DNA of 64,000 nucleotides from Bacillales bacterium (lineage in GTDB: Bacteria > Bacillota_I > Bacilli_A > RF39 > UBA660): contig JAEEKZ010000018.1 in the NCBI GenBank assembly GCA_016288635.1, forward strand, positions 8,650 to 72,649, read 5' to 3'. Under the pieces are notes generated by a model that did not search any database, was not told the DNA's origin, and saw only the letters and a program-made list of their open reading frames with translations. Both the position numbers and the translations under genes were made by a program. Shown one piece after another: positions 40,679-56,081 of the stretch (positions are counted from its first letter, which is position 1; every line of letters begins with the position of its first letter).

Positions 40679-40687
40679 GAGATTCAA

Positions 40688-40900
40688 ATGGAAGAAGGAA
40701 TTAAAGTATTAGGAGATAACAATCCTGGAATTAAACCAGTTACGGATAATATTGTTGAAAGTAAACCAGTAGATAATGATGGAATCAAGCCCGTTAGCGT
40801 TAATCAGAATGTTAATACACAAGTTGCTGGTTCAAATGACGATTATATTGAAGGAATTCCGGATTGGAGTATAGAGCCTGAAGTTCTAATTAAGAGGTAG
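40688..40900 (+). CDS. small hypothetical protein with GIKP(V) repeats
   Basis: 70 aa, SD AGGAG upstream. It has EGIKVLGDN / PGIKPVTDN / DGIKPVSVN repeats and a conserved-looking tail GIPDWSIEPEVLIKR. No TM. Confidence 0.55.
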   Translation: MEEGIKVLGDNNPGIKPVTDNIVESKPVDNDGIKPVSVNQNVNTQVAGSNDDYIEGIPDWSIEPEVLIKR

Positions 40901-40902
40901 CT

Positions 40903-41346
40903 ATGACATATAATGATTGGCTAGATTTTATAAAAAAAATAGAAACAAGTAAATTATCCGATGATATGTTAGATGTTATTAAGAATAATCAGTTAAATGA
41001 TAGTTTTAAAGAAAATGTTCTTACGAAGATGGATGAAGCAATTTATAAAAGACTTTCTACTGCTACGGAAAACATAGCTTCTAAACTTACTTATTTGTTT
41101 GAAGATGAATATTTAATGGAAATGCAGTTGGTTATATTTAAAAAAGAAACAAACATTTTATATAAAATAGTAAAATCAGGGATCTTTCCTCAAGAATATG
41201 TTGAAAAAAGAACAGAACAAATAAGAGATGACGTTGATAAAATATTTGATATTTTATATAACGAAGCAAATAAGATTGATTTTTCAGGTGTTTTAGGAAT
41301 GTCAATAAAAAATAATAGAATAAGGTGGGATAAAGATGAATTATAG
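40903..41346 (+). CDS. hypothetical soluble protein
   Basis: 147 aa, helical-looking. It lies 2 nt after the previous stop and its 3' end overlaps the AAA+ gene by 11 nt. Confidence 0.6.
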   Translation: MTYNDWLDFIKKIETSKLSDDMLDVIKNNQLNDSFKENVLTKMDEAIYKRLSTATENIASKLTYLFEDEYLMEMQLVIFKKETNILYKIVKSGIFPQEYVEKRTEQIRDDVDKIFDILYNEANKIDFSGVLGMSIKNNRIRWDKDEL

Positions 41347-42869: not shown

Positions 42870-42898
42870 TTGAAAATTATGGGTTTTAATTATATAAT
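42870..42898 (+). promoter_or_regulatory. near-consensus sigma-A promoter in front of the T4SS-like module
   Basis: TTGAAA (42870-42875), 17 nt, TATAAT (42893-42898). I see no terminator hairpin between the AAA+ stop and this promoter. Confidence 0.65.
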
Positions 42899-42928
42899 GT
42901 TACTATGATAAGTATACGAGGTGTTGAT

Positions 42929-43378
42929 ATGACAAATTATAAAAAAATAATGAAGGGGATATTTTATATGATATCTTTCCTTTTAATTGTGACTCCAGGA
43001 ACTTTATATGCAGCAACAACCAAACCTTTCGTTTTTTGTGAGGGAAATGTTTTGGTAGCATTTAGAATTTTAGGATTAGTTATTGCGTTTGTTAAAATTG
43101 GAGTTCCTATACTTTTAATGGTTTTAACAACAATCAATGTATTTAAAGCAATGTTAGCTGGTGATGATAAAGATTATAAAGGCTCTGCAACATTATTTGG
43201 TAAGAGATTATTAATTTCGCTTATTATTTTTATATTGCCTTCTATTATTGATGGAGTTCTAAGTATCGTTTCTAAAGATTATAATAATGTATCATTGAGC
43301 GAAGGATCAAGTGATAGTTTTGCAGCGTGCACTAAATGTATGTTAAATGTTGATTCTTGTCCTCAAAAAATTGGATAG
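42929..43378 (+). CDS. small secreted/membrane protein with VirB2/TrbC-like topology (copy 1)
   Basis: Signal peptide ending LYA-ATT, then two TM helices separated by a charged loop (KAMLAGDDKDYKGS). ATG 42929 with SD GAGGTG is preferred over 42905. Confidence 0.4.
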   Translation: MTNYKKIMKGIFYMISFLLIVTPGTLYAATTKPFVFCEGNVLVAFRILGLVIAFVKIGVPILLMVLTTINVFKAMLAGDDKDYKGSATLFGKRLLISLIIFILPSIIDGVLSIVSKDYNNVSLSEGSSDSFAACTKCMLNVDSCPQKIG

Positions 43379-43398
43379 GATGATTAATTGGAGGAAAA

Positions 43399-43788
43399 AT
43401 GAAAAAGAAAGATTTAAGATTTTTGTTAATTTTGATTATTTGCATTTTATTGGTTCCTATTGTTGTTCATGCTGACGCAGTAGCTAGTTGTAATACATTA
43501 TTGGGAAATCCTAAAAATCCAGATGAGCCAGCATATTATGTTAATATGGCTTTTCAGCTTATAAAATATGTATGTATGGTTTTGCTTCTTATATATTCGA
43601 CTATAGATTTTGCGAAAGCGTTAACAACAGAAGATCAAGCGGCTTTAAAAAATGCTGGTTTGAAGTCTGGAAAAAGAGTTATTTATTTAATAGTATTGTT
43701 TTTTCTTCCAACTTTAATATTCACTATTTTTGAATGGCTTGGTATTGTAAGTGCATCTGATTGCAGTCCAATGCTATCAGGAAATTAG
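43399..43788 (+). CDS. small secreted/membrane protein with VirB2/TrbC-like topology (copy 2)
   Basis: 129 aa with a signal peptide ending VHA-DAV and two TM helices separated by the loop AKALTTEDQAALKNAGLKSGKR. Same architecture as copy 1. Confidence 0.4.
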   Translation: MKKKDLRFLLILIICILLVPIVVHADAVASCNTLLGNPKNPDEPAYYVNMAFQLIKYVCMVLLLIYSTIDFAKALTTEDQAALKNAGLKSGKRVIYLIVLFFLPTLIFTIFEWLGIVSASDCSPMLSGN

Positions 43789-43798
43789 TAGGTGTATT

Positions 43799-46700
43799 AT
43801 GAATAAATATATATGGTCATTAGGATTGCTTGATGGAATTATAAATTGGTTTAATGATGCTTTAGGAGATGTATCCCATTTTTTTCATTGTGTCATTAAA
43901 GGAATCACAACTAATCTACATTTAGGATTAATTGATTTTTCTATGTTTGTTGATAATCTATTTATGTATGTATCTTCATATTTTATTAGGCTATTTACGG
44001 CATTAGCTTCTATTCGACTTTTTCAAGATGATAATACTGTTTATAACGATTTAGCAAAAAAAGTGTATGTTTTTATGGTTTTTCTTATGTTCTTTATTTT
44101 GGCATACAATCTTATATATCATGTTATAGATCCTGATAATAAAAATTCTAAAGTTGGTACTCCTGGTCAAACTGCAAAGAAAATTGTTATTGCCTTGATT
44201 GGTATTTTATTTGCACCAACGGCTTTCAATTTTTTAGGAAATGTCCAAACAGCGATAGTTAAGTATAATACTATTGGTAAGTTAATATTCCCTGATCAGG
44301 CTTCTAATAGCGGTGCAGAGGATGCTGCTGATTCAGCAATTGCAGATATCTATAAAGCATTTGTTTATCCAACAGAAGATCCGAATTCAAACCCTAAATT
44401 GATTAAAAAAGAACTTGTTGTTGGTTTTATTGAAAGTTGTGGTATATGTAATGATATGGATCATTATTACCATGATGGAGAGCCAGATCATTACGGTGGC
44501 GTTGCTGCGTGTAAAAGTCCAAACATATTTTCTGACTTTACATATGAGTCTGTATTTGTAGAAGCCAGAACAGAACATAATTTTTTCCTACTACATGGTT
44601 ATTTGTCACCAAATGTGTTGGTTCAAAATAAAATTGCAACAATGGAATCACAAGTTCATGGTGGTTGGAAGGCTGATGTATATAGAAATAATGGTTTAAC
44701 ATATATACCAGGGGTTCCTTTAATTGTGTTTATTTATTTGTGTTATACAGTATTCTTATTCTTATTTGATTTAGCTTTAAGAATGTTTAATTTATTTTTC
44801 TTGGAGATTATGTCACCAATTGCGTTTGGGATGTATTTACTTCCTCCGTCTAAAGATAAAATGTTTAATACTTGGTTAAGCGCTTATTTTAAAACGTATG
44901 CCTTAGTATTTGTTAAAATGTTATTTCTTTTCATGATGCTTTGGTTAATGCAAAAAACTGTAGAAGCTAATGGTATTATTGCTACTATAATGAGCAGTTT
45001 ATCTTCTGCTTTAGCGGGTATGTCTTTCTTTACTAAGATTTTCTTAACGGTAATTATATTATGCGGTTTATTTAGATTTATTAATAATTTACCTAAATTC
45101 TTGAAAGATTCATTTGGCTTTGATATTAATTCAATGGGTAAATCTAGTGCTAAAGCTATATTTGGCGATATTAAGGAAGGATTTGCTAAAACTAAAAAAG
45201 CAGTTACTGCTCCTTATCATGCTACAAAAAAAGCAGCTGGTCATGCCGCTGGTGCATATGGTGGTGCTAGATATGGTCTAAAGAAGATTAAGGACAATAT
45301 GAAAAATGCCAAAACCACTACTGGTAAAATGAAAGGATTTATGTCTGGGTTAAATGCTCTTAGACATTCTACAGCAGCTGGAATGAAGGCGGAAAATGCC
45401 AGAGCTGGTGTTTTAGCTGGTCAAGCCGCATATCAAGAAAGACAACAAGCATGGAGAAATGAAAAGAATGCTTGGAAAAATATGTTTGCCAATGTTGAGG
45501 AATCTTTAAAGCATATTAAAATTTCTACTGATGGTTTTAGAGATCAAATTAAAATTGTTCTTGAAAATAATAGTGCAAATATTGCTCAAGCAGATGGTGT
45601 TGTTCAAAAAAATATGGATAATGCAAAATTAGCAAAGGTTGTTACAGATAAAGCTGGTGGCAAAGTTGCTAGACTTAGCGATGATCAAATTAGTGCTTGT
45701 ACGGCTAGGGCTAATGATATGGATAAAGAAATTGAAGCAGCTGATTCAGATTTTGCTGCTGCAACTGCATTGCAAACTGCTGCGCAAAATGGCTTTGTTG
45801 TTGCGGACCAAAAAGCAGAGGCTGACTTCCGTACTGAGTTAATTCAAGCAAGGAATGCTTATAAAGCAAGAGTTGGTAGAGAACTTACTGCTGCAGAGGA
45901 AGAAAATGTAGCGACTGGAGTTGTTAATAAGTTTAAGAATGCTAATAGAATTGTTCACTCAACTAATTCTGCACAAACTCAATCTGCGATTTCTGCATAT
46001 TCCGGTGTTGCACAGGAAGCTGCTAAAAGAAAAGAAAGTGCTACAAGGGCTCGAGGTCAATATGAGGCTGCATCTAAAGGGGAAATGATATTTACAGATC
46101 ATGCTGTTAAATCTCAATTTGATCAAAAAGTTCAGGCGGCTTATGATAAAGCTAAAGCTGCAAATCCAAATCTTAATGAAGCTAAATTTAAAGCTGATTA
46201 TGGAAGTACGTTGGCACAACAATATATGGAAGCTGGACTAATGATTTCTTCATCTACCACTTTGGGTGCTAGAGAGTCATATGCTCAAGAATTAGCTTAT
46301 ACTCGTTATGAAGATTTATCTGCTGAACAAAAGGCTTTAATGACTGAAGAGGAATATCACGCTCATCAAGCTTCTGCACAACAGCAAGCAGCTATTTTGA
46401 AAGGCGCTGCTGGTGAAATTGCACTCCAATTTGGTACGGATGGTGGAGATCTTGATACTCTTGGATTATCTTCAAAGGATCGACAAGTTCTTGATAATGC
46501 AATTCAAGCACAATTAGCAACTTCTGAAGTTGTTCAAAGTCTAATTAAATCAGGCGATTTGCAAGAAATTAATGATTCTTTAAGTCGAGCTGGGGTTGTA
46601 AGCGATGCACTTGGCGAATTCCCTACGCCAGAAGATGCAAATGATCCGAAAAAACATGCATTCGATGGACAACGTGGTAAAATTGTTACCGAATTTGCAA

Positions 46701-46813
46701 AACAAATGAAGACTGTTGATTCTTATAATACGAAAGTGTCTCAAGAAGAAAAATTATATCAAGCTAAAACTGGTGGTACCGGAGGTTCCAACGGTTCTGG
46801 TGGATCTAAATAG
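43799..46813 (+). CDS. giant polytopic VirB6/TrbL/ConG-like membrane protein with ~520-aa Ala/Gln/Lys-rich C-terminal extension
   Basis: 1004 aa from ATG 43799 (SD TAGGTG). It has multiple TM helices and the core DLALRMFNLFFLEIMSPIAFGMYLLPPSKDKMFNTWL typical of VirB6-like proteins. The C-terminal half is helical and low-complexity, ending GGTGGSNGSGGSK. Confidence 0.55.
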   Translation: MNKYIWSLGLLDGIINWFNDALGDVSHFFHCVIKGITTNLHLGLIDFSMFVDNLFMYVSSYFIRLFTALASIRLFQDDNTVYNDLAKKVYVFMVFLMFFILAYNLIYHVIDPDNKNSKVGTPGQTAKKIVIALIGILFAPTAFNFLGNVQTAIVKYNTIGKLIFPDQASNSGAEDAADSAIADIYKAFVYPTEDPNSNPKLIKKELVVGFIESCGICNDMDHYYHDGEPDHYGGVAACKSPNIFSDFTYESVFVEARTEHNFFLLHGYLSPNVLVQNKIATMESQVHGGWKADVYRNNGLTYIPGVPLIVFIYLCYTVFLFLFDLALRMFNLFFLEIMSPIAFGMYLLPPSKDKMFNTWLSAYFKTYALVFVKMLFLFMMLWLMQKTVEANGIIATIMSSLSSALAGMSFFTKIFLTVIILCGLFRFINNLPKFLKDSFGFDINSMGKSSAKAIFGDIKEGFAKTKKAVTAPYHATKKAAGHAAGAYGGARYGLKKIKDNMKNAKTTTGKMKGFMSGLNALRHSTAAGMKAENARAGVLAGQAAYQERQQAWRNEKNAWKNMFANVEESLKHIKISTDGFRDQIKIVLENNSANIAQADGVVQKNMDNAKLAKVVTDKAGGKVARLSDDQISACTARANDMDKEIEAADSDFAAATALQTAAQNGFVVADQKAEADFRTELIQARNAYKARVGRELTAAEEENVATGVVNKFKNANRIVHSTNSAQTQSAISAYSGVAQEAAKRKESATRARGQYEAASKGEMIFTDHAVKSQFDQKVQAAYDKAKAANPNLNEAKFKADYGSTLAQQYMEAGLMISSSTTLGARESYAQELAYTRYEDLSAEQKALMTEEEYHAHQASAQQQAAILKGAAGEIALQFGTDGGDLDTLGLSSKDRQVLDNAIQAQLATSEVVQSLIKSGDLQEINDSLSRAGVVSDALGEFPTPEDANDPKKHAFDGQRGKIVTEFAKQMKTVDSYNTKVSQEEKLYQAKTGGTGGSNGSGGSK

Positions 46814-46839
46814 TGGTTTGAAAGGAGTAGTGTGAGATT

Positions 46840-49176
46840 ATGGCAAAAGTAAACAATAATGCACAACCTGAAACAGTTGCATCTGTTTGGGCTACGGTTA
46901 GACAAATCACTAGTGGTGTTGTAGTTCTTAATACTGGTGAACTTGTTTCTGGGGTAAAGATTATCCCTAGAAACATTTTTATCATGCAACAAGATGATAC
47001 AAATGCAATTATTTATGGTTTAAGTAAGTTTTATGACTCAATAGATTTTGACTATTGGTTAATTATTGGTGATAAACCAGTTGATTTGAATAATTATTTT
47101 AATTCAGTTCAGAATATTTATAACACAAGTAGTTCTGAGCATATTAGATCAATTGCACGTGATGACATTGTTAAAGCTAATAAATATGTTTCTGGAGACT
47201 ATGGTGTTTCTGATACAGAATATTTCTTATTATTTAAAGATAAAACAATACAATCAGTACAAGAAAGAATATCTAAGTTAATTAGTGGCATTAGGGAATG
47301 TGATCTTGATGCTACTCAAGTATCAAATGATGAACTTCGTTTAGTTATGGATACATTCTTAAGTAATGGTAAGAAAGCTATCGCTCTTGGCGATGAATCT
47401 GATGATGCAAAAGCAAATAATGATGTTAGTTTTGATGATACATATTTTAAGTATGGTGGAACATTCTCCACTATTCTTAGTGTAATCGGTTATCCTGGTT
47501 CTATTTATCCTGGATACTTGTCAGGTTTAATCAATATTCCTAATGCACGTATTTCAATTAAATATCAAAAAACTCAATTTGACTCATTGAGGAAGATTGT
47601 TGGTAGAGAAATAGCTATTTTAAAGCAAAAATATCAAACAGAAAGAGATTTAGCTTTACAGGAAAAATTAAGAAATGATTACGAAAATTTGGAATCATAT
47701 TTGAAAACAATTAAAGATAATGACATGCAAGTATTTAATTCATGTATGAATATTATGGTTTCTGCGGAAACTCTTGAATTATTAGAAGAACATAAGAATA
47801 ATGTTAGAAGATATCTTGAAAATATGGGAATTTCTTCCATTATTATGATTAAGGAATTGGATTCTGTGCTAAAGTCAATGTTACCTATTTTTGACGATCA
47901 ATTGGTAACTAGAAGAATTAACATTCCTATTCCATCTTATACTATGTCTACAATGTATCCATATGTATTTGACAGTTTAAAGGATCCTGGAGAATCATAT
48001 TTAGTTGGTGGAGATTTTTCTGGTGGTGTAGTTTTATTTGATCAATTTGCTTATTTAAAAAATACATCTTCTAATAGATATAACGCTAATATTATTGCTG
48101 TTGGAGAAAAGATTAATGGTAAAACAACATTATTAAAGTTACTTACTAGAGGTAATGTTAGAAATGGTAATGTTGTTTCGCTTGTTGATGAATCTTCTGA
48201 GTATGATTCTATGACTTCAAATTATGGCGGGGAATATCTTACTTTAGATTCGGATAATGTTGGTGGCATTTTAAACCCATTAGAAATAATAAATGATGTT
48301 ACGGATGACGAGAAGAAACAAGGATTAAATTATACGGCAATGGTTCGTACAATAACTTATTTAAAGGCTTTGTTAAAATATATTAATCCTAATGTTGAAG
48401 ATGATGTTGAGAAGAAATTTGAAGAAGTGTTAACGGTAACTTACAGACGTTTTCATATAGATATGAATACTGATTATTCAGAGATTCAATCTAGTCAGTA
48501 TCCAATATTTAATGATGTGTATGCAACTGTTAAGGGGTCTTATTTGTCTTCTCCAGAAGGATCTGCAGAACGTGATGTTTTAAAAAGACTTGAAAAGTGT
48601 GTTGTTCCTTTTGTAAATGATTATGCAAAGTACTTTAATGGTCATACGACATTAGAAATAAAGGATAATTTTATATCATTTGGGGTAAATTATTTAAATA
48701 CTCCAACCACAGTTAAATTAGGTTTAGAGCTTACAGCGTTAAAATATTGTTGGAAAAGAAGTTGCGATGTTAACCATTTTTCTTCAATAGTATTTGATAA
48801 TGTCAACACATTATTTAGTACTGACAATGTTTTTGCAGCTGATTATATTTCGCAAATAGTAAGAAGATCGTTATTATTTAGAAACGGATGTATTTTCTCT
48901 ATTGAAAATACTAAAGATTTAGTTTATCAAAATACAATTTCTTATACTAAATCTATGTTTGACAATAGTTCTTACTTCTTTGTTATGAATTTAAGAAAAC
49001 AAAATTTTAATTATTTATCTCGAATGATTAAATTTAATGATGCTGAAGAAGCCTTTATTAAATCGATTGGAAAGGGAGATTGCTTATTCCTTTGTGGTTC
49101 TAGAAGACTTCGACTTAATATAATAGTTTCCGATGAAGAATTGACTTCATTTGGATTAAATATAGATTTTCAATAG
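46840..49176 (+). CDS. VirB4-like (TraE/PrgJ/ConE-type) ATPase paralogue with degenerate catalytic motifs
   Basis: 778 aa, colinear over its full length with the 49495-51845 pair. Walker A pattern is kept (GEKINGKT). DPEGE becomes DESSE, Walker B DE becomes DN (IVFDNVN) and ITQQ becomes SIEN. Confidence 0.7.
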   Translation: MAKVNNNAQPETVASVWATVRQITSGVVVLNTGELVSGVKIIPRNIFIMQQDDTNAIIYGLSKFYDSIDFDYWLIIGDKPVDLNNYFNSVQNIYNTSSSEHIRSIARDDIVKANKYVSGDYGVSDTEYFLLFKDKTIQSVQERISKLISGIRECDLDATQVSNDELRLVMDTFLSNGKKAIALGDESDDAKANNDVSFDDTYFKYGGTFSTILSVIGYPGSIYPGYLSGLINIPNARISIKYQKTQFDSLRKIVGREIAILKQKYQTERDLALQEKLRNDYENLESYLKTIKDNDMQVFNSCMNIMVSAETLELLEEHKNNVRRYLENMGISSIIMIKELDSVLKSMLPIFDDQLVTRRINIPIPSYTMSTMYPYVFDSLKDPGESYLVGGDFSGGVVLFDQFAYLKNTSSNRYNANIIAVGEKINGKTTLLKLLTRGNVRNGNVVSLVDESSEYDSMTSNYGGEYLTLDSDNVGGILNPLEIINDVTDDEKKQGLNYTAMVRTITYLKALLKYINPNVEDDVEKKFEEVLTVTYRRFHIDMNTDYSEIQSSQYPIFNDVYATVKGSYLSSPEGSAERDVLKRLEKCVVPFVNDYAKYFNGHTTLEIKDNFISFGVNYLNTPTTVKLGLELTALKYCWKRSCDVNHFSSIVFDNVNTLFSTDNVFAADYISQIVRRSLLFRNGCIFSIENTKDLVYQNTISYTKSMFDNSSYFFVMNLRKQNFNYLSRMIKFNDAEEAFIKSIGKGDCLFLCGSRRLRLNIIVSDEELTSFGLNIDFQ

Positions 49177-49190
49177 AAAGGATGGTTTAA

Positions 49191-49505
49191 ATGAATAGTA
49201 ATTACTTGATTCCTGCTAATTCAAAAAGATCGCAGTTGATTCTTAACTGGCTTAAGCCAATTGATTTAATTATTCTAGTAAGTGGTGCACTAGTCACTGC
49301 TATATTAGCTTTCATTTTTGGTTCTAAAGCGACTTTTGTTGGGCTTGTACTTATGTGTGTGCCATTATTGGTTTGCGTTACACTAGTTCTTCAAGTACCA
49401 AATTATCATAATGTTCGCCAGTTATTAACAAATATTTTTACGTATTTCTTTATAAGACCAAGAACTTATTATTGGAGAGGCTGGTGTGTAGACGATGAAG
49501 AATGA
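49191..49505 (+). CDS. VirB3/PrgI-like small two-TM protein
   Basis: 104 aa with two TM helices (IDLIILVSGALVTAILAFIF; VGLVLMCVPLLVCVTLVL). It sits immediately upstream of, and overlaps, the VirB4-like gene, as VirB3-type genes do in Gram-positive T4SS loci. Confidence 0.5.
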   Translation: MNSNYLIPANSKRSQLILNWLKPIDLIILVSGALVTAILAFIFGSKATFVGLVLMCVPLLVCVTLVLQVPNYHNVRQLLTNIFTYFFIRPRTYYWRGWCVDDEE

Positions 49506-50055
49506 TATATACGCTGGTAGAAATTATTCTGAGGATTGGATTCCAATTAAGCAAATTGCAAATGGAATGATCGAACTCGATACTAATGAATTTGTTTGTG
49601 GCGTAAAAGTTCAGCCAAGGAATATATTTATTGTTCCTCAGCAAGAAAGAACAAATGTTATTAATAACTTATCTTCGTTTTATAATACGCTTGACTATGA
49701 ATTTTGGTTGGTTATTGTTAATAGACCGGTTGATATTGCTGCTTATATAGCTCGTTTACAAGTTTTAGAAAATTCTAATACAATGCATCCTGCTATTAAA
49801 AAAATGGTTAATGAAGATATAGCTAAAGCAAATCAGTTTGTTGGATCTAGTTATAATGTTACTGATACAGAGTATTATTTCTTATTTAAGGAAAAGAAAC
49901 CTGAATTAATAGAGAAAAAGTTAAATGATATTATTGGTGGTCTTTCTGGTGCAAGATTAACTGGTACAAGAGCAACAAATGAAGATATGAGGATGATACT
50001 AGACAATTTCTTCAGTGATTGTAAGAGTACGTCATTTAATTCGGTAGGTGTATAA
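49495..50055 (+). CDS. VirB4-like protein, N-terminal domain encoded as a separate ORF
   Basis: 186 aa aligning with aa ~13-190 of the 46840 ORF (GVKVQPRNIFIVPQQE vs GVKIIPRNIFIMQQDD; DTEYYFLFKEK vs DTEYFLLFKDK). It ends in TAATG, which is shared with the next ORF. Confidence 0.7.
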   Translation: MKNDIYAGRNYSEDWIPIKQIANGMIELDTNEFVCGVKVQPRNIFIVPQQERTNVINNLSSFYNTLDYEFWLVIVNRPVDIAAYIARLQVLENSNTMHPAIKKMVNEDIAKANQFVGSSYNVTDTEYYFLFKEKKPELIEKKLNDIIGGLSGARLTGTRATNEDMRMILDNFFSDCKSTSFNSVGV

Positions 50056-51845
50056 TGCTAAATGTTTTGAAGAGTGAAATAGCCCCAAAGGGTATAATTT
50101 TTAAACCAACAAGTTTTAGATTTGGGGATAATTATGGAGTTATATTTACGATTACTGCTTATCCTAGTAGTATTAATGAAGGATATTTGTCTGATATTAT
50201 AAACTTACCCGGTGTAAGAGTATCAATTAAACATATTCCTATTGGTTTTGATAAAATGAGAAATATGTTAAATAAAGAAATATCTGATTTAAAGTCTCGT
50301 TATGAAAAAGAGAAGGATTTAACATTAAAAGAGAAAATTAAGCAAGATTATGAAACGCAAGAAGCGTTTATTCAAATGCTAGCATCATCTCAGGCAAGAA
50401 TATTTGATTTTCAAATGCATGTTATGTTAACAGCAAATAGTAAGGAACAACTTGAATTTAGAAGATCTCAAGTTAGAAGTTATCTTGAAGGCTTAGATCT
50501 TAGAACAGTTAACTTAATGTTTGAGCAAGAAAAAGCTTTTAAATCAATGGTTCCTATTTTCCCTCCACAAGATATTGAGGAGAGAATTGGTAATGCAATA
50601 CCATCTATTTCTATAGCAGCAATGTATCCATTTGTATTTGATAGTATTAAAGACGATGGGTTGGGTTCATTGCTAGGAATTGATTTTTCAGGTGGAGTTG
50701 TATTATTTAATCAATTTCTATATCAAATTAAAAAGGTTAATAATAGAAATAATGCCAACTTGATCCTTTTAGGTAAGTCTGGTTCAGGTAAATCAACTGC
50801 GGCTAAATTATTGCTTAGAACACATATAAGAAATGGTTGTAAGTTAGTTGTTATAGACCCTGAAGGAGAATTAGAGGATTTAACTAAGAACTTAGATGGC
50901 GACTTCCTAGATGTTGGTAAGGGTGGAAAATTTGGTATGATTAACCCTCTTGAAGTTATTGCCGACGTTGATGAAGAGGAAATAGCTCAAGGATTAGGAA
51001 ATACTATTTTAACTAGAACTATTCAACAAGTTAAAGCGTTCTTAAAGTATTATTCTCCAGATATTGATGATGAGACATTGGGAATGTTTAGTGAAGTTTT
51101 ACAAGAAACGTATAAACGTAAAGGTATAGATTTTGATTCAGACTTCACAAAATTTTCTAGTGATGATTATCCTACATTTACTGAAGTTCACGAAACAGTA
51201 AAAGGACATTTATTGTCTATGGTAAATGCAACGAAAGAACGTGAAATATATGAAAAACTCGAACTTAAGATTAGACCTTTAGTTCATGAAATGAGATTCT
51301 ATTTCGATGGTCATACAACTGTACAGTTAACAAGTAATTTGATTGTATTTAATATTAGAGAAATAATGAATAGTGAAGATAATATTAAAAATGCGTTATT
51401 CTTTAATATTTTGAAGTTTGCGTGGGGCCAATGTCTTGATAGAAATGTAAATACAATATTAATGGTTGATGAGGCGCACGTATTACTTGCTAGTCATAAC
51501 GAATTAGGTGCTGAATTCTTAGCACAAGTTCAAAGACGTGCAAGAAAGTATAATACTGGTACAATTATAATTACGCAACAACCTACAGACTTTGCTGATC
51601 CAAAGATGATTGTTCATGGAAAAGCAATATTTGATAATGCTTCTTATTATCTAATTATGCAACTTCCTAAACAAGCGGTTGAAGATTTGGCAAAATTAAT
51701 TGATATTAATGAATCTGAAATGGAAAGTATAAAACAATATGAGCAAGGAGAAGGAATGTTCTTCTGCGGAAATAAACACATGAGAATTAATGTTGTAGCT
51801 ACCGAGGAAGAATTAGCTTCCTTTGGATATGGTGGAGGACATTAG
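50055..51845 (+). CDS. VirB4-like (TraE/PrgJ/ConE-type) ATPase, catalytic portion with canonical motifs
   Basis: 596 aa with Walker A GKSGSGKST, VVIDPEGE, Walker B ILMVDEAH, RRARKYNTGTIIITQQPTD and a C-terminus EEELASFG. Confidence 0.8.
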   Translation: MLNVLKSEIAPKGIIFKPTSFRFGDNYGVIFTITAYPSSINEGYLSDIINLPGVRVSIKHIPIGFDKMRNMLNKEISDLKSRYEKEKDLTLKEKIKQDYETQEAFIQMLASSQARIFDFQMHVMLTANSKEQLEFRRSQVRSYLEGLDLRTVNLMFEQEKAFKSMVPIFPPQDIEERIGNAIPSISIAAMYPFVFDSIKDDGLGSLLGIDFSGGVVLFNQFLYQIKKVNNRNNANLILLGKSGSGKSTAAKLLLRTHIRNGCKLVVIDPEGELEDLTKNLDGDFLDVGKGGKFGMINPLEVIADVDEEEIAQGLGNTILTRTIQQVKAFLKYYSPDIDDETLGMFSEVLQETYKRKGIDFDSDFTKFSSDDYPTFTEVHETVKGHLLSMVNATKEREIYEKLELKIRPLVHEMRFYFDGHTTVQLTSNLIVFNIREIMNSEDNIKNALFFNILKFAWGQCLDRNVNTILMVDEAHVLLASHNELGAEFLAQVQRRARKYNTGTIIITQQPTDFADPKMIVHGKAIFDNASYYLIMQLPKQAVEDLAKLIDINESEMESIKQYEQGEGMFFCGNKHMRINVVATEEELASFGYGGGH

Positions 51846-51869
51846 AATTAAGATTGGTGGTGAATTAAT

Positions 51870-53261
51870 ATGGATAGTAATTCTGAAGTTGAATCTAGTA
51901 GATCAACTGCTACGAATGAGGTTTCTGATAAAGATGGTTCTGAATTTGTCATAGAAAGACCTGAAGGCGAAAATCTTGAGACGACAATTCATATTAATTC
52001 AGACGGTCATAATAATGGTGATGATCCTCAAAAAGCAAGTTCTTCTAGTGGATCTGATAATTCTCAAAATATGACATTTGATGGGTCTTCTAATAAAGAA
52101 CAATCATCTAATCGCGGGAATTCTGAAAATAATAATAAACCAAATCAGAATTTGAATGCTGATGATGGGGATAAAACTGATGGAACAGGTGATGAGCTAA
52201 ATGATGGTTCATCCGGATCTTCTGATGATGTACTAAATAGTCAGAAAAATGCTTCTGAAACACCTGATATTTACGATATTATGGATAAGGATAAAGATAG
52301 TCCTGATAAAGCAAAGATATCAAAATCAGAAAGTGGTCATTTAGAGGATTCTGATGATGAGGATCCTGAATTTGATCATGAGTTTTCAGATGATGAATTC
52401 AAAGAAGCTGATGATTATCAGAGTGCCACATTGACAAGAACTAGAAGTGTAACCGATTCATCTAGTTCAGATGAGGATGAATCTGGAGAAAAAGCAAAAG
52501 GTGATGGTGAAACTTCAGATGTATCTGGTATAGATGGTGACGATTCTGATGAATTGGGTTCTAAGGATGATAAAACTCAAGATGCATCAAGTGAGGCAGG
52601 AGGAGAGTCTTCTGAGGATCCAAAGACTAGAGTAGAAACTGAAGAAAAAAAAGATTCTGAAAGTGGTTCAGATAATGCTGAAAGTAATAAATCAGCAGAT
52701 TCCGGGGAATCTTCAGATGGATCAAGTGATGAAAAGCCGACTGAAGAATCTAACAAATCAGGCAGTGAAGAAAACAAATCTGATGAGACGCCTGAAGAAT
52801 CGAAGGAGACGGGAAAAACTAGTGAGTCGGAAGATTCAAAGGGTGATGAAAAATCTGATGAAGATTCTGATTCTGATAGTTATGAAAGGCAGAATGAAAC
52901 TGCTGAATCAATGCGTCAAAATAAACTTAGATTTGGTGAGGAAAATGAAGGTTCTGCTCCAACAAGAGATATAACTCGTAATTCTGCTCGAAGTGCTGCT
53001 GGGTCTGAAGATTCAGATTCTTCCGATTCTGAAAAAGATGACAAGAAAGATGCTGAAAAAAAAGAAGAAGAAACAAATGAAGAGTCATCGAAAGAAACAA
53101 AGTCCGCAGATGCAGAAACCACTGAATCTAGGACAGATGAAATAAAAGGCCAAATTGCTGGTAAAGGTAAAAAGATAATGAAGTATATACTTGTAATTAT
53201 CCTTACTTTTATTTGTACTTTAGCTGCTTGTTATCTTATAGTTGGCTTGTGTGGATGTTAA
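51870..53261 (+). CDS. hyper-acidic Ser/Asp/Glu-rich disordered protein with C-terminal TM anchor
   Basis: 463 aa. About 430 aa are low-complexity (S, D, E, K, G, N), followed by a single C-terminal hydrophobic helix (YILVIILTFICTLAACYLIVGLCGC). SD GGTGG upstream. Confidence 0.7.
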   Translation: MDSNSEVESSRSTATNEVSDKDGSEFVIERPEGENLETTIHINSDGHNNGDDPQKASSSSGSDNSQNMTFDGSSNKEQSSNRGNSENNNKPNQNLNADDGDKTDGTGDELNDGSSGSSDDVLNSQKNASETPDIYDIMDKDKDSPDKAKISKSESGHLEDSDDEDPEFDHEFSDDEFKEADDYQSATLTRTRSVTDSSSSDEDESGEKAKGDGETSDVSGIDGDDSDELGSKDDKTQDASSEAGGESSEDPKTRVETEEKKDSESGSDNAESNKSADSGESSDGSSDEKPTEESNKSGSEENKSDETPEESKETGKTSESEDSKGDEKSDEDSDSDSYERQNETAESMRQNKLRFGEENEGSAPTRDITRNSARSAAGSEDSDSSDSEKDDKKDAEKKEEETNEESSKETKSADAETTESRTDEIKGQIAGKGKKIMKYILVIILTFICTLAACYLIVGLCGC

Positions 53262-53275
53262 ATATTTATTAAATT

Positions 53276-53301
53276 AAAAAACATATTTATTATGTTTTTT
53301 T
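53276..53301 (+). terminator. intrinsic terminator inside the island
   Basis: Perfect 10-bp stem AAAAAACATA/TATGTTTTTT with a 5-nt loop. AT-rich. Confidence 0.5.
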
Positions 53302-53334
53302 AATTATTTTTTATATAGATATAAATATAATATA

Positions 53335-53343
53335 TGATATAAT
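53335..53343 (+). promoter_or_regulatory. extended -10 element upstream of the coupling-protein gene
   Basis: TGaTATAAT (TATAAT 53338-53343), 24 nt upstream of ATG 53367. SD AAGGAGGGG. Confidence 0.45.
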
Positions 53344-53366
53344 TAATTAGAAAAGGAGGGGAATTT

Positions 53367-56081
53367 ATGCATTTTAAAGTAAAGAAAAAAGACTTTATTA
53401 TTTTCATTGTTTATTGCGTATTTTTCCTTTATATTTGTGCTTTAGTTGTGGTTAATGCTCTTTGGCTATTGAATAAGGGAGAATTCTATGGTATTTTTCC
53501 GTGGATTGCTGTTTTGTTTCCCTACAATTTTTTAACTGTAATTTTATTCTTAATTGTTGTATTTTGGACATTATCTTCAACTAAAAGTAGTATTTTTGAT
53601 AAAGATAGCGGAGGGAAAGGCTTATTTAGTTTAGTATTTGGTGATAAACCGTCAAACGGTTTTTCAAATTGGTCTTCCGAGAAGGATATGAGAAATGGAC
53701 AAGATGTTGTCAAAATTAATCCTTCAAGTGAAGAAACTAATGCTGCGGGGATTCCACTTATTAATAATGGTAGAGATGTATTTGTAGATAATGGTGAATA
53801 CCATAATATGGTTATCGGTTCTACCGGATCCGGTAAATCTACTACAATCGTTATTCCGTTAGTTACATTATTAGCTCGTCATGGTGAATCAATGATAATT
53901 ACAGACCCTAAGGGTGAGTTATATAGATCATCATCTGAGTATTTAAAAGAAAAAGGTTTTAATATTATACTTTTAAATTTCCGTGAGCCTTCGACAGGTA
54001 ATGCATGGAACCCTTTAGCGCTTCCATATGAGTATTATAAAAATGGTAAAGAAGATAAAGCTATAGAGTTGTTAACAGATATTTCTAAAAATATTATGTA
54101 TGAAAAAACTGATGATGTATTCTGGCAAAACTCTGCAGCTGACTACTTTGCCGGTATAGCTTTAGGATTATTTGAAGATGGAGAAATAGATGAAGTTAAC
54201 TTAAATAGTATAAGTTATGCAGCAAGTATTGGTGAAAAACGTGTGGGTATGAGTACTCTTATTAAAGAATACTTTAAACTTAAGGGTGAAGACTCACAAG
54301 CTTATTCTTATGCATCCGGTACTATTGATGCTCCAAATGAAACTAAGGGAAGTATTTTATCAACATTTAAACAAAAAGTTAGATTATTTACTTCTGGTAA
54401 AGCTTTAAGTGAAATGCTTTCTCATAGTGATTTTGATATGAGAGACATTGGTAGAAATAAAACTGCTGTTTTCCTAATTATTCATGATGAAAAGAAAACA
54501 TATCATGGATTAATGACAATATTTATTAAGCAATGTTATGAAACATTAATCGATGTTGCTCAAGAATGTGGAGGTAAGTTACCTCAAAGAACTAACTTTA
54601 TTCTTGATGAGTTTGCAAATATGCCACGACTTAATGATATTGATTCAATGATATCTGCAGCTCGTAGTAGATTGATAAGATTTACATTTATTATTCAAAA
54701 CTTTGCTCAGTTGGATGGAGTATATGGTAGTGAAGTAGCACTTACTATTCGTGGTAACTGTGGTAACACTGTATATTTGATATCTACTGAAACTAAGGCT
54801 TTGGAAGAAATTTCTAAGTTATGTGGTGATATTAAAGTTAAAGTTGGTAAAGGTGATAAAGAGGTTGAGGAAACTAGACCTTTGATATCTGTTACTGACT
54901 TACAAAAAATGAAACCATTTGAAGCCATTATTATGAGATTGCGTATGGCTCCATTTAGAACACAAATGACACCTTGTTTCAAAATGAACTGGGGTCTTAA
55001 ACAAGGAAATGCAGCATATTATGAAAGAGAATTAACTGAACCAAGGTTATTTGATATTGAAAAATATGTTAATGAACATAAAGAGCAGCCTTCTGGAGGT
55101 ATGCCGGGTATGCCTGGCGGTATGTTCGGTGGAGGTATGTCTGGAATGCCTGGCGGTATGTTTGGCGGAGGAGGCATGGGTGGAAGCATGTTTGGCCCTC
55201 CACCATCTAGTAAACCTTTATTTGAGGATCCTGTTCCAGGTGATAAACCTCCTAAGACAAGATCCACTGATTCTTCAGATACAGCATTCCCTAAGATTTC
55301 TGGATTAGAAAATATTGACTTCAATAATCTCGAGTCTGTTTCAGATGAGGATTTAGATAAGGCGCTTAAAGAACTTAATGAACAACTTAAGAAACTTAAC
55401 GACGAATCTGATGATAATGATGATATTAAGGCAAATGAAAATGATGATGATATTGTTGTCAAGAAAGATAATGACTCTGATTTATTTAAGAGTATGAAAT
55501 TCGATGACGATGATGATGATGACGATGATGATGTTATCATTGAAAATGATGTTAAATACGATGCAAATGATGATTCAAAGGCTATTGATGCAAAAATAAT
55601 TTCTGATTCAGATGACGATAATAAAAAGGATGATAGTTATATTCCTCCTTTTGAAAGTAGTAGATTTAATTTTGAATTTGATGATGATGATGATGACGAT
55701 GATGACGACGATGATAAAAAAGAAGAAGTATCTGTTGTTGGTATTCCAAATATGTTCAATTCTCATGGAAATAAAATTAATAATACCATTAATGTGTCAG
55801 AGATATCAAACGATGATTCAAAGGATGATGCTAAGGCAACGTTTAATTATATTGATGAAAATCAAAATAGTGAAAGTGAGTCTCATGGATATTTAGATGA
55901 TGATTATCAATCTCCAAGTGATAATGCTTCTAGTACCGATAGTAGTGAAATTAAGCCTGATAAATCCTCTACATCAACTGATTCAGATTTTAAATATAAA
56001 GTTGATAATGATAGTGTTATTGTTAACGAAAATATCGTTACAGATGATGAATACTATGATGATTTCTTTGGAGATGAATAA
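53367..56081 (+). CDS. VirD4/TraG-family type IV coupling protein with ~330-aa low-complexity C-terminal extension
   Basis: 904 aa with two N-terminal TM helices, Walker A VIGSTGSGKSTT, ITDPKGE, Walker B FILDEFANM and IIQNFAQL. The tail has Gly/Met repeats and poly-Asp runs. Confidence 0.8.
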   Translation: MHFKVKKKDFIIFIVYCVFFLYICALVVVNALWLLNKGEFYGIFPWIAVLFPYNFLTVILFLIVVFWTLSSTKSSIFDKDSGGKGLFSLVFGDKPSNGFSNWSSEKDMRNGQDVVKINPSSEETNAAGIPLINNGRDVFVDNGEYHNMVIGSTGSGKSTTIVIPLVTLLARHGESMIITDPKGELYRSSSEYLKEKGFNIILLNFREPSTGNAWNPLALPYEYYKNGKEDKAIELLTDISKNIMYEKTDDVFWQNSAADYFAGIALGLFEDGEIDEVNLNSISYAASIGEKRVGMSTLIKEYFKLKGEDSQAYSYASGTIDAPNETKGSILSTFKQKVRLFTSGKALSEMLSHSDFDMRDIGRNKTAVFLIIHDEKKTYHGLMTIFIKQCYETLIDVAQECGGKLPQRTNFILDEFANMPRLNDIDSMISAARSRLIRFTFIIQNFAQLDGVYGSEVALTIRGNCGNTVYLISTETKALEEISKLCGDIKVKVGKGDKEVEETRPLISVTDLQKMKPFEAIIMRLRMAPFRTQMTPCFKMNWGLKQGNAAYYERELTEPRLFDIEKYVNEHKEQPSGGMPGMPGGMFGGGMSGMPGGMFGGGGMGGSMFGPPPSSKPLFEDPVPGDKPPKTRSTDSSDTAFPKISGLENIDFNNLESVSDEDLDKALKELNEQLKKLNDESDDNDDIKANENDDDIVVKKDNDSDLFKSMKFDDDDDDDDDDVIIENDVKYDANDDSKAIDAKIISDSDDDNKKDDSYIPPFESSRFNFEFDDDDDDDDDDDDKKEEVSVVGIPNMFNSHGNKINNTINVSEISNDDSKDDAKATFNYIDENQNSESESHGYLDDDYQSPSDNASSTDSSEIKPDKSSTSTDSDFKYKVDNDSVIVNENIVTDDEYYDDFFGDE
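55095..55205 (+). repeat. in-frame Gly/Met(Pro/Phe) repeat GGMPGMPGGMFGGGMSGMPGGMFGGGGMGGSMFGPPP
   Basis: Near-identical units GGTATGCCTGGCGGTATGTT(C/T)GG occur twice within 55095-55205. Confidence 0.85.
55503..55715 (+). repeat. two GAT/GAC codon runs (about 10 and 12 consecutive Asp) in the coupling-protein tail
   Basis: By manual parsing, 55503-55532 holds 10 Asp codons and 55680-55715 holds 12 Asp codons. Confidence 0.85.

What the first reader, a model, noticed from the sequence alone, without database searches (positions are those of the whole stretch)
46840..49176. Full-length VirB4-like paralogue with selectively degenerate catalytic motifs (probable pseudo-ATPase)
The 778-aa ORF aligns end to end with the canonical VirB4-like pair at 49495-51845. 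Shared segments include GVKIIPRNIFIM / GVKVQPRNIFIV, MYPYVFDSLKDPG / MYPFVFDSIKDDG and EEELTSFG / EEELASFG. It keeps a Walker A pattern (GEKINGKT vs GKSGSGKST). However, DPEGE becomes DESSE, Walker B hhhhDE becomes IVFDN, and IIITQQ becomes IFSIEN. Loss of the Walker B glutamate normally abolishes hydrolysis while allowing nucleotide binding. Two VirB4 paralogues in one locus, one catalytic and one apparently dead, suggests a hetero-oligomeric ATPase or a structural scaffold. This is not a standard feature of described Gram-positive T4SSs.
Basis: partly seen in the sequence, partly recalled or inferred. Interest (0 to 1): 0.7.

Follow-up and report, generated by a model that had tools for sequence, protein, structure and literature searches.

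The report
Conserved catalytically dead VirB4 paralogue
A gut bacterium's DNA/protein-transfer machine (type IV secretion system) carries a second full-length copy of its motor ATPase that has lost the residues needed to burn ATP but is still kept intact by selection, so it probably serves as a non-catalytic structural or regulatory subunit.

Summary
ORF 46840-49176 (778 aa) is a full-length VirB4 homologue. It aligns end to end, at 37% identity, with the neighbouring canonical VirB4, which is encoded as two overlapping ORFs (186 + 596 aa).

The copy keeps the GxxxxGKT P-loop and the Walker B Asp. It has lost the Walker B Glu (DE to DN), the "RK" pair and the "TQ" glutamine (RK to LL, TQQ to IEN). 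These residues are invariant in about 90-119 canonical relatives, and RK and TQ also occur in the solved VirB4 proteins TpsVirB4 and TrwK.

It is not decaying. Three alleles (100/96/86% identity) are intact in the same operon. dN/dS is 0.06-0.10, against 0.013-0.022 for the canonical ATPase ORF. Constraint on the ATPase domain is relaxed about 8-fold, while N-domain residues 191-400 stay tightly constrained.

None of 84 related loci from uncultured gut Bacilli has a second VirB4. In all of them the canonical gene is split, so the split is normal and the fused dead copy is the oddity.

The closest precedent is Rickettsiales RvhB4-II, a conserved VirB4 paralogue without ATPase active sites. I judge this an independent monoderm variant of a known phenomenon. 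The structural role, possibly the "outside" position of a VirB4 hexamer of dimers, is inferred and not shown.

The parts
46840..49176 (+). Degenerate, fused VirB4 paralogue (778 aa): the finding itself
   Evidence: ORF. Paralogy. VirB4 family and fold. dN/dS 0.06-0.10. Intact orthologues P0001 (96%) and P0002 (86%) in the same synteny.
48103..48129 (+). Walker A / P-loop GEKINGKTT (residues 422-430). The GxxxxGK[ST] pattern is kept, but inner residues differ from the family-invariant GSGKST and vary between orthologues (E/Q, N/T).
48187..48201 (+). DESSE (residues 450-454) in place of the family-invariant DPEGE. D450 and E454 are kept.
48787..48801 (+). Degenerate Walker B IVFDN (residues 650-654). 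Asp653 is kept. The catalytic Glu is Asn in all three orthologues, and the following AH is VN.
   Evidence: Canonical DEAH is found in 85 of 89 untruncated relatives.
48862..48879 (+). RRSLLF (residues 675-680) in place of RRARKY. The RK pair, conserved in this family, in TpsVirB4 (IRKYN) and in TrwK (IRKQN), is replaced by LL (IL in P0002). This is the putative arginine-finger position.
   Evidence: RK in 89/89; TrwK and 4AG5 alignments. The Arg-finger assignment is inference by analogy with TrwB R375 (PMC9886983) and FtsK.
48898..48909 (+). SIEN (residues 687-690) in place of ITQQ. The conserved NTP-cleft Gln is replaced by Glu.
   Evidence: The conserved Gln is described in PMC2653234.
49191..49505 (+). 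104-aa small membrane protein (three hydrophobic segments) immediately upstream of the canonical VirB4. It occupies the VirB3-like position.
   Evidence: A homologue is present in 82 of 84 related loci. No family hit. VirB3 identity is inferred from position and size only.
49495..50055 (+). Canonical VirB4, N-terminal piece (186 aa, TraC-like PF26593)
   Evidence: The stop overlaps the next start (TAATG).
50055..51845 (+). Canonical VirB4, C-terminal piece (596 aa). It has complete motifs: GKSGSGKST at 50772-50798, DPEGE at 50856-50870, LMVDE at 51459-51473, RRARKY at 51534-51551 and ITQQ at 51570-51581.
   Evidence: (4AG5, E 1.8e-60). dN/dS 0.013-0.022.
43751..46813 (+). 1020-aa polytopic membrane protein, candidate VirB6-like channel subunit
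   Evidence: About 7 hydrophobic segments. Weak NCBIfam hits to the Mbov_0396 / MMCAP2_0566 ICE transmembrane families. Homologues in 27 related loci.
42905..43788 (+). Two small membrane proteins (157 and 129 aa) that begin the conserved T4SS core
   Evidence: homologues in 42 and 36 related loci
51870..53261 (+). 463-aa fast-evolving protein with a C-terminal TM segment. It sits in the slot where relatives encode CHAP/lysozyme or M23 cell-wall hydrolases.
   Evidence: (34% aa identity between window and L001; omega about 0.7)
53367..56081 (+). VirD4-type coupling protein (904 aa)
   Evidence: Pfam T4SS-DNA_transf at 4.7e-56, plus TraG-D_C and TrwB_AAD_bind
42870..42898 (+). Best promoter-like site (TTGAAA-17-TATAAT, 11/12) ahead of the T4SS core operon
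   Evidence: This is a consensus match only; the promoter count in the region is not above the shuffles.
56080..56097 (+). Terminator-like hairpin plus T-run after the coupling-protein gene

Best explanation
The 778-aa ORF is a duplicated VirB4 that became a non-hydrolysing subunit of the same type IV secretion machine.

Shown:
- It is a bona fide full-length VirB4 (N-domain plus RecA-like C-domain).
- It lies inside the T4SS core operon, between the VirB6-like and VirB3-like genes.
- It has lost the Walker B Glu, the conserved RK and the conserved TQ, while keeping the P-loop Lys/Thr and the Walker B Asp.
- It is kept intact under purifying selection. The strongest constraint is on N-domain residues 191-400, and constraint on the ATPase domain is about 8-fold weaker than in the canonical copy.

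Inferred:
- It cannot hydrolyse ATP at a useful rate and may or may not still bind nucleotide.
- Because it also lacks the probable trans-acting Arg, it would not support catalysis in a neighbouring subunit. It is therefore unlikely to sit inside the catalytic ring.
- The most economical model is that it pairs through its N-domain with the canonical (split) VirB4 and takes a non-ring, scaffold position. That position would be equivalent to 'VirB4outside' in the R388 hexamer of dimers. There it would anchor or stabilise membrane partners while the canonical copy forms the active central hexamer.
For: - Paralogy and colinearity.
- VirB4 identity: NCBIfam VirB4_plasma at 1.1e-72 over residues 32-768; PDB 4AG5 at 2.6e-19; AF2 C-domain pLDDT 80-96 with Foldseek TM 0.85 to 4AG6/4AG5, followed by TrwK chains.
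- Motif loss fixed in all three orthologues, against 119 canonical homologues and 84 loci from other genomes. The same RK and TQ are seen in TpsVirB4 and TrwK.
- Enrichment of loss in nucleotide-site motifs: p = 0.012.
- Purifying selection: omega 0.095, 0.062 and 0.100 at dS 0.34-0.92.
- Omega by domain, degenerate copy: N-a 0.124, N-b 0.044, C-domain 0.113. Canonical copy: 0.092, 0.027, 0.014.
- Operon context: 14-26 nt gaps or overlaps between genes and no internal terminator.
- Identical synteny in the 86%-identical relative across 9 contigs.
- Only the duplicate is accelerated. The canonical copy is no more divergent than expected from its T4CP.
- Literature: Walker B Glu mutants abolish ATPase activity in the related Cag-beta (PMC9886983). 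The R388 IMC contains VirB4central and VirB4outside, joined only through N-domains (PMC9259494). A virB4 active-site mutant still stabilises VirB3/VirB8 and supports pilus formation, as cited in PMC2653234. RvhB4-II provides a precedent (PMC4676284).
Against: - No biochemical or structural data exist for this protein.
- A hexamer-of-dimers arrangement has not been shown for any monoderm T4SS.
- Retention of GxxxxGKT plus the Walker B Asp could reflect a maintained nucleotide-dependent function that is not purely structural.
- Q689E puts a new carboxylate in the active-site cleft and could in principle substitute as a catalytic base.
- The first 190 residues of the model are low-confidence (pLDDT below 50), so nothing can be said about the N-terminal interface.
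- Only three alleles from one narrow lineage exist, so the selection estimates rest on few comparisons.
- The origin of the copy is unresolved: it could be an in-situ duplication or an acquisition from an unsampled fused relative.
Confidence: 0.62

Rival explanations
1. The paralogue is still an active ATPase with a rewired active site. The Glu that replaces the conserved cleft Gln (Q689E), or E454 of the DESSE motif, would take over as catalytic base. The two VirB4s would then form a mixed or alternative motor.
For: P-loop G422/G427/K428/T429-430 and Walker B D653 are retained, and E689 is fixed in all three orthologues. The C-domain is still under purifying selection (omega 0.11). ASCE ATPases are known to place the catalytic Glu at different positions (general knowledge).
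Against: Several elements are lost at once: the Walker B Glu, the universally conserved RK, T688 and the PEG of DPEGE. Constraint on the C-domain is 8-fold weaker than in the canonical copy. P-loop inner residues vary between close orthologues (E/Q, N/T). The score to 4AG5 falls from 208 to 72 bits.
Confidence: 0.1
2. The paralogue is a regulator or inhibitor rather than a building block. As a naturally dominant-negative VirB4 it would cap or poison assembly, or serve exclusion or immunity, and so tune when the T4SS is active.
For: Catalytic-site VirB4 mutants are dominant-negative in A. tumefaciens (general knowledge; Dang et al. 1999 is listed in the references of PMC3969286). The conserved N-domain (omega 0.044) would allow binding to the canonical copy or its partners.
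Against: The gene sits mid-operon between core genes with 14-26 nt spacers. This implies constitutive co-expression with the machine rather than separate control. The full-length fold is retained, including a selectively maintained C-domain.
Confidence: 0.15
3. The paralogue is a relic: a duplicated or horizontally acquired VirB4 gene on its way to pseudogenisation, with no function.
For: It is restricted to one narrow lineage (0 of 84 related loci). It lies on a long branch and has degenerate motifs.
Against: A 778-codon frame is intact in three alleles from at least 10 contigs of independent samples. dN/dS is 0.06-0.10 at dS up to 0.92, similar to the T4CP (0.11). Orthologues differ by only 14% while paralogues differ by 63%, which indicates an early burst followed by stasis.
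Confidence: 0.03
4. The paralogue belongs functionally to the lineage-specific upstream module (37620-42853, which includes a Cdc48-like AAA+ ATPase) rather than to the canonical T4SS. Together they would form an accessory apparatus that merely borrows a VirB4 fold.
For: The 467-, 550-, 70-, 147- and 505-aa genes and the degenerate VirB4 share the same narrow distribution. All are absent from the 84 related loci and present in L001-L006.
Against: The paralogue is separated from that module by three conserved T4SS core genes. It lies downstream of the best promoter-like site at 42870. No evidence links the upstream genes to VirB4.
Confidence: 0.1

Closest known systems
Rickettsiales RvhB4-II (VirB4b) of the rvh type IV secretion system
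   Same: It is a second, full-length VirB4 paralogue that has lost conserved NTP-cleft residues, including the conserved Gln. It evolves faster than the canonical copy yet is strictly conserved, and it has been proposed to act as a non-powering structural component (PMC2653234, PMC4676284).
   Different: - It is an independent duplication in a diderm alphaproteobacterial P-type T4SS.
- rvhB4-II lies far from the other rvh genes and is accompanied by duplicated VirB6/8/9.
- The duplication is ancient and order-wide.
- Here the copy is in a monoderm, mycoplasma-ICE-like T4SS. It is adjacent to its partner in one operon, only VirB4 is duplicated, and the copy is confined to one narrow lineage. 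It is fused, whereas the canonical gene is split.
Mycoplasma/Spiroplasma ICE VirB4 (NCBIfam NF045975, Mbov_0397 family; ICE CDS17/TraE)
   Same: This is the best-scoring curated family for both copies, covering nearly the full length. The neighbouring 1020-aa protein weakly matches the Mbov_0396 ICE membrane protein.
   Different: Scores are 245 bits (degenerate copy) and 335 + 50 bits (canonical pieces), all below the 590-bit equivalog cut-off. Identity to Spiroplasma plasmid copies is about 22%. The window contains no ICE hallmarks: no DDE transposase, integrase or relaxase was found.
Thermoanaerobacter pseudethanolicus VirB4 C-domain (PDB 4AG5/4AG6) and R388 TrwK (PDB 7O41/8RTD)
   Same: They share the fold (TM 0.85 to 4AG6; TrwK chains come next). 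The motif positions are alignable.
   Different: Those proteins have the complete Walker B DE, RK and S/TQ motifs. The degenerate copy has DN, LL and IE.
VirB4outside protomers of the R388 inner-membrane complex
   Same: This is a functional analogy only. These VirB4 molecules sit outside the catalytic hexamer, are held through the N-domain and contact VirB8 tails (PMC9259494). That role needs no ring-dependent catalysis.
   Different: In R388 the same gene product fills both positions. No such architecture has been shown in monoderms, and nothing here tests it.

Membership tests
VirB4 / TraC / CagE family of T4SS ATPases (fold and domain architecture) | Two-domain architecture: an N-terminal VirB4 domain plus a C-terminal RecA-like P-loop domain of the HerA/FtsK clade | tested here: met
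   NCBIfam VirB4_plasma profile positions 126-890 of 894 match residues 32-768. Pfam CagE_TrbE_VirB matches residues 207-333. 4AG5 matches residues 383-767. Foldseek gives TM 0.85 to 4AG6 and then full-length TrwK.
VirB4 / TraC / CagE family of T4SS ATPases (catalytic competence) | Walker A GxxxxGK[ST] | tested here: met
   GEKINGKT at residues 422-429, with G, G, K and T kept in all three orthologues. Retention of these few residues across three close sequences is not statistically significant.
VirB4 / TraC / CagE family of T4SS ATPases (catalytic competence) | Walker B hhhhDE with the catalytic Glu | tested here: not met
   IVFDN: Asp653 is kept and Glu is replaced by Asn in all three orthologues. 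Three alignment methods agree.
VirB4 / TraC / CagE family of T4SS ATPases (catalytic competence) | Conserved motifs C/D: the R-K pair after Walker B and the T/S-Q of the NTP cleft | tested here: not met
   RK is replaced by LL/IL and TQQ by IEN/VEN. RK and TQ are present in 89/89 and 84/89 related canonical copies, and in 4AG5 and TrwK.
VirB4 / TraC / CagE family of T4SS ATPases (catalytic competence) | Measurable ATP hydrolysis and hexamer formation | not testable with these tools
   This needs purified protein.
NCBIfam NF045975 VirB4_plasma (Mbov_0397 ICE conjugal transfer ATPase), equivalog | Whole-protein score at or above the curated cut-off of 590 bits | tested here: not met
   245 bits for the degenerate copy and 334.6 + 50.5 bits for the canonical pieces. 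It is a related family but not an equivalog.
Degenerate VirB4 paralogues of the RvhB4-II type (functional class, not an orthologous family) | Coexists with a canonical VirB4 in the same genome and system | tested here: met
   The canonical split VirB4 lies 319 nt downstream in the same operon.
Degenerate VirB4 paralogues of the RvhB4-II type (functional class, not an orthologous family) | Substitutions in NTP-cleft residues together with conservation of length, and faster but constrained evolution | tested here: met
   compare PMC2653234 and PMC4676284.
Degenerate VirB4 paralogues of the RvhB4-II type (functional class, not an orthologous family) | Orthology with RvhB4-II (shared ancestry of the duplication) | tested here: not met
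   The nearest relatives are the monoderm 'Bacilli bacterium' VirB4s at 37-44% identity. All best matches are to monoderm or mycoplasma-type VirB4 families. The duplication is therefore independent.
Integrative conjugative element (ICE) conjugation module | Relaxase plus integrase or transposase, with element boundaries, next to the T4SS genes | tested here: not met
   No relaxase, integrase or DDE transposase domain was found in the 39 ORFs that were scanned (the larger ones). The flanks are RelA, AbiD and HtrA on one side and MscS and Suf on the other. Small ORFs and distant families were not searched exhaustively.

The most novel reading that the evidence does not exclude
This monoderm T4SS has genetically separated the two structural roles that a single VirB4 plays in the R388 hexamer of dimers. 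The canonical split VirB4 would build the catalytic central ring. The fused, catalytically dead paralogue would be dedicated to the peripheral 'outside' scaffold position. This would be the first indication that monoderm T4SSs also use a two-tier VirB4 assembly. It would also provide a natural system in which ring and scaffold functions can be mutated independently.
Probability: 0.25. Interest if true: 0.65.

Novelty: new variant of a known kind. Interest (0 to 1): 0.5.

Why it matters
VirB4 is the one ATPase common to all type IV secretion systems. Its dual role as motor and scaffold is hard to separate experimentally, because a single gene supplies every copy in the machine. A naturally occurring, selectively maintained, hydrolysis-dead paralogue beside an intact one could help separate the two roles. 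It arose independently of the Rickettsiales case and lies in a monoderm system whose architecture is essentially unknown. This suggests that non-catalytic VirB4 positions are a general feature of T4SS design.

It also flags a practical annotation issue. In this large clade of uncultured gut Bacilli the functional VirB4 is a two-ORF gene, while the only single-ORF 'VirB4' is the dead copy. The impact is limited by the narrow distribution (one lineage, three alleles) and by the existing Rickettsia precedent.

Tried and rejected
- **Close orthologues in GTDB genomes.** A scan of GTDB representative genomes with the single protein found none. A second scan with alignment A1 found at least 579 species, but only canonical copies.
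- **Origin of the copy.** In NJ trees the degenerate clade is the longest branch. With a Mycoplasmatota plasmid outgroup it falls sister to all canonical sequences in 165 of 200 bootstraps. This is the expected long-branch artefact. It conflicts with the raw similarity, which is highest to the P0003 clade that also contains the window's canonical copy. I therefore leave the origin unresolved: in-situ duplication with re-fusion, or acquisition from elsewhere.
- **Acceleration of the canonical copy after duplication.** Rejected. Its divergence tracks that of the T4CP, as in other lineages.
- **Alternative genetic code (TGA = Trp) to explain the split.** Rejected. Table 4 changes ORF ends only trivially, and the split stop is TAA.
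- **Other duplicated T4SS components, as in Rickettsia.** None found, apart from a weak similarity between the two small membrane proteins.
- **Defence-system membership of neighbouring genes.** Only generic AAA (IetA-like) and AbiD hits were found.
- **Primary papers on VirB4 catalytic residues.** Wallden 2012 and Pena 2012 are not held. The Arg-finger assignment therefore rests on analogy.
- **N-terminal structure.** The AF2 model of the first 190 residues is unusable (pLDDT below 50).
- **Heteromer modelling.** No multimer prediction tool was available.
Full report
**1. What is in the sequence**

The window is AT-rich (about 30% GC). Nearly all genes are on the + strand, and GC skew is strongly positive throughout. 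It is chromosomal. It carries SecY, RpoA, a ClpB/C-type ATPase, DnaB, ArgRS, RF1, MurA, RelA/SpoT, HtrA, MscS and Suf genes.

Between HtrA (36396-37526) and MscS (56158-56970) lies a same-strand gene cluster. It is bracketed by terminator-like hairpins at 37517-37546 and 56080-56097.

The reported ORF at 46840-49176 is real: ATG start, 778 aa, preceded by AAAGGAG.

**2.

By BLASTP the 778-aa protein aligns with the 596-aa ORF 50055-51845 over residues 192-772 (37% identity, one gap, E 4e-153). It aligns with the 186-aa ORF 49495-50055 over residues 17-178 (37% identity, E 5e-43). All quoted motif pairs are present.

One small correction: the C-terminal string is SDEELTSFG.

A larger point concerns the canonical 'pair'. 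It is one VirB4 gene split at a TAATG stop/start overlap. The split is not damage:
- Hundreds of homologues are 594-597-aa proteins preceded by a ~180-195-aa 'TraC-like' ORF.
- In 91 of 91 canonical loci examined the C-terminal ORF is about 550-650 aa and is never fused.

The fused architecture of the degenerate copy is therefore the exception in this family.

**3. It is a genuine VirB4**

| Test | Degenerate copy | Canonical copy |
|---|---|---|
| NCBIfam NF045975 (mycoplasma ICE VirB4, Mbov_0397) | 245 bits, E 1e-72, residues 32-768 | 334.6 + 50.5 bits |
| T. pseudethanolicus VirB4 C-domain (PDB 4AG5) | E 2.6e-19, 72 bits | E 1.8e-60, 208 bits |

Both NCBIfam scores are below the 590-bit equivalog cut-off.

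An AlphaFold2 model built on a 48-sequence alignment has a confident C-domain (pLDDT 80-96). Residues 200-350 are moderately confident, and the first 190 residues are unusable. Foldseek places the model on 4AG6/4AG5 (TM 0.85 normalised to the target) and then on full-length TrwK/VirB4 chains of the R388 machine.

**4. Which catalytic elements are lost**

I compared the copy with 119 canonical homologues and with 84 loci from other genomes.

| Element | Canonical | Degenerate copy |
|---|---|---|
| Walker A | GSGKST invariant | G422, G427, K428, T429/T430 kept (GxxxxGKT); inner residues changed and variable between orthologues (E/Q423, N/T426) |
| DPEGE | invariant | DESSE |
| Walker B | DEAH in 85 of 89 | Asp653 kept; Glu to Asn654 in all three orthologues |
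| R-K pair | 89 of 89 | L/I-L |
| T-Q-Q | 84 of 89 | I/V-E-N |

The R-K pair and the T/S-Q are also present in TpsVirB4 (IRKYN...ISQ) and in Gram-negative TrwK (IRKQN...ATQ). They are therefore signatures of VirB4 as a whole.

BLASTP, MAFFT and HMMER all give the same register. No acidic residue lies near position 654, so the 'shifted Glu' refutation fails.

The loss is selective. The copy keeps 9 of 27 nucleotide-site motif columns, against 116 of 194 other family-invariant columns (Fisher p = 0.012).

Supporting knowledge:
- Walker B Glu substitutions abolish hydrolysis in the related T4SS ATPase Cag-beta (PMC9886983).
- In TrwB the trans-acting Arg finger lies about 18 residues after Walker B (PMC9886983).
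- By that analogy, and by comparison with FtsK from my own knowledge, the lost Arg of 'RK' is the likely finger. This is inference.
- The conserved Gln is described as part of the NTP cleft in PMC2653234.

**5. It is maintained by selection**

Only two other sequence clusters are orthologous: P0001 (96% identity) and P0002 (86% identity). The next best hits drop to 44% and are canonical proteins.

Both orthologues sit in the same gene order: VirB6-like, 778, ~104, 186, 596, ~465, T4CP. P0002 occurs on 9 contigs from independent samples.

Nei-Gojobori dN/dS:

| Gene | dN/dS |
|---|---|
| Degenerate copy | 0.095, 0.062, 0.100 (dS 0.34-0.92) |
| Canonical 596-aa ORF | 0.013-0.022 |
| Canonical 186-aa ORF | 0.09 at the same (86%) distance; 0.017 vs the 96% relative |
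| T4CP | 0.11 |

dN/dS by domain, window versus L001:

| Region | Degenerate copy | Canonical copy |
|---|---|---|
| N-domain, first part (1-190 / 186-aa ORF) | 0.124 | 0.092 |
| N-domain, second part (191-400 / C-ORF 1-215) | 0.044 | 0.027 |
| C-domain (ATPase) | 0.113 | 0.014 |

Constraint has been released about 8-fold on the ATPase domain specifically, and it has not been abolished.

The paralogues differ at 63% of positions, while orthologues at dS of about 0.9 differ at only 14%. This indicates an early burst of change followed by stasis. The canonical copy is not accelerated: its divergence from relatives matches that of its T4CP.

**6. Distribution and origin**

A pattern scan of GTDB representative genomes found relatives in at least 579 species. 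Most are titled uncultured Bacilli, Tenericutes or Mycoplasmatota from gut metagenomes. None of the 84 loci retrieved from other species has a second VirB4 within ±10 kb. The paralogue is therefore confined to the window's lineage.

The same lineage also uniquely has an upstream module at 37620-42853. It comprises a 467-aa membrane protein, 550-, 70- and 147-aa proteins, and a Cdc48/VCP-like AAA+ ATPase.

Within the cluster only VirB4 is duplicated.

Phylogenetic placement is unresolved. The copy is most similar to the P0003 clade, which also contains the window's canonical copy. An outgroup-rooted NJ tree pulls its long branch to the base, and I regard that as long-branch attraction. The simplest history is an in-lineage duplication followed by re-fusion of the two ORFs, but acquisition from an unsampled fused relative is not excluded.

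**7. Mechanism**

*Shown:* this is a full-length VirB4 fold. It is co-operonic with a complete T4SS core. It lacks three independent catalytic elements and is under purifying selection that is strongest on the second half of the N-domain.

*Inferred:* the protein does not hydrolyse ATP. Because it also lacks the probable trans Arg, it would disable a neighbouring site in a mixed ring, so a productive hetero-hexameric motor is unlikely.

The R388 structure offers a ready niche. Twelve VirB4 molecules form a hexamer of dimers. Six 'outside' protomers are attached solely through N-domains and contact VirB8 tails, while the six central ones form the ring and contact VirB3 (PMC9259494, PMC12857230). 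A VirB4 active-site mutant still stabilises VirB3/VirB8 and supports pilus formation in Agrobacterium (cited in PMC2653234).

I therefore favour a dedicated scaffold or 'outside' subunit (confidence about 0.6 for non-catalytic T4SS subunit, and about 0.25 for the specific outside-protomer model).

Rivals:
- a rewired active site using E689 (0.10);
- a built-in negative regulator (0.15);
- a partner of the lineage-specific AAA+ module (0.10);
- a decaying relic (0.03, contradicted by dN/dS).

**8. Comparison with what is known**

The closest known case is Rickettsiales VirB4b/RvhB4-II. It is a second full-length VirB4 with seven substitutions in NTP-cleft residues. It evolves faster yet is strictly conserved, and it has been proposed to stabilise rather than power the channel (PMC2653234, PMC4676284).

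The present case shares that behaviour but is not orthologous. It is an independent duplication in a monoderm, mycoplasma-ICE-like VirB4 lineage. The copy is adjacent to its partner, no other components are duplicated, and the copy is fused while the active gene is split.

A 2025 review states that Gram-positive VirB4 homologues retain all signature motifs (PMC12857230). My literature searches found no monoderm example of a degenerate paralogue.

I classify it as a new variant of a known kind.

**9. Verdict**

The caveats are the Rickettsia precedent, unproven nucleotide binding, and the arrangement of the two copies, where a scaffold is more likely than a mixed catalytic ring.
- Interest is moderate (0.5). 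This is a clean, selectively maintained pseudo-ATPase in an unexplored T4SS family. It is useful for dissecting VirB4's motor and scaffold roles, but it is narrow in distribution and conceptually anticipated.

Noticed in passing
window 42905-56081; loci L008-L091: The same minimal T4SS core is found in at least 579 GTDB species of uncultured gut Bacilli/'Tenericutes': two small membrane proteins, a VirB6-like protein, a VirB3-like protein, the split VirB4, a hydrolase slot and a VirD4 T4CP. It is embedded among housekeeping genes. No relaxase, integrase or transposase was detected in this 64-kb window or in the loci inspected. It may be a chromosomally fixed system rather than an ICE.
   Followed up: partly
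window 49495-51845 (junction at 50053-50057): The canonical VirB4 is encoded as two ORFs (186 + 596 aa) with a TAATG stop/start overlap. This split is conserved in 91 of 91 related canonical loci. A related split also appears on a Mycoplasmatota plasmid (L092).
   Followed up: yes
window 37620-42853: A lineage-specific five-gene module lies directly upstream of the T4SS core: a 467-aa protein with 3 TM segments, 550-, 70- and 147-aa proteins, and a 505-aa Cdc48/VCP-like AAA+ ATPase that also gives PADLOC IetA-like hits. It is absent from all 84 related loci and syntenic in L001-L006. Its function is unknown.
   Followed up: partly
window 51870-53261: A 463-aa ORF with a C-terminal TM segment evolves very fast (34% aa identity and dN/dS of about 0.7 between the window and L001; 0.45 against L007). 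It sits where relatives encode CHAP/lysozyme or M23 cell-wall hydrolases. It has no family hit.
   Followed up: partly
window 35445-36395: An AbiD/Abi_2 abortive-infection-type gene (PADLOC AbiD at 3e-54) lies between RelA/SpoT and HtrA.
   Followed up: no
window 20185-22787: There are tandem FemAB-family paralogues (29% identity). MurA, a MurJ/Wzx-like flippase and an M23/LysM peptidase are also present. The organism therefore makes a cross-bridged peptidoglycan, despite relatives being labelled 'Tenericutes/Mycoplasmatota'.
   Followed up: no
loci L012, L013, L016, L025, L036 and others (titles): Several MAG records carrying this Bacilli-type T4SS are titled Muribaculaceae, Methanobrevibacter or Phocaeicola vulgatus. 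These are probably mislabelled or contaminated bins.
   Followed up: no
window 1-64000: GC skew is strongly and uniformly positive (about +0.2 to +0.37) and almost all genes are on the + strand, across 64 kb that begins in the ribosomal-protein/SecY/RpoA operon. TGA is a rare stop codon (5 of 63 ORFs of at least 100 aa on the + strand).
   Followed up: no
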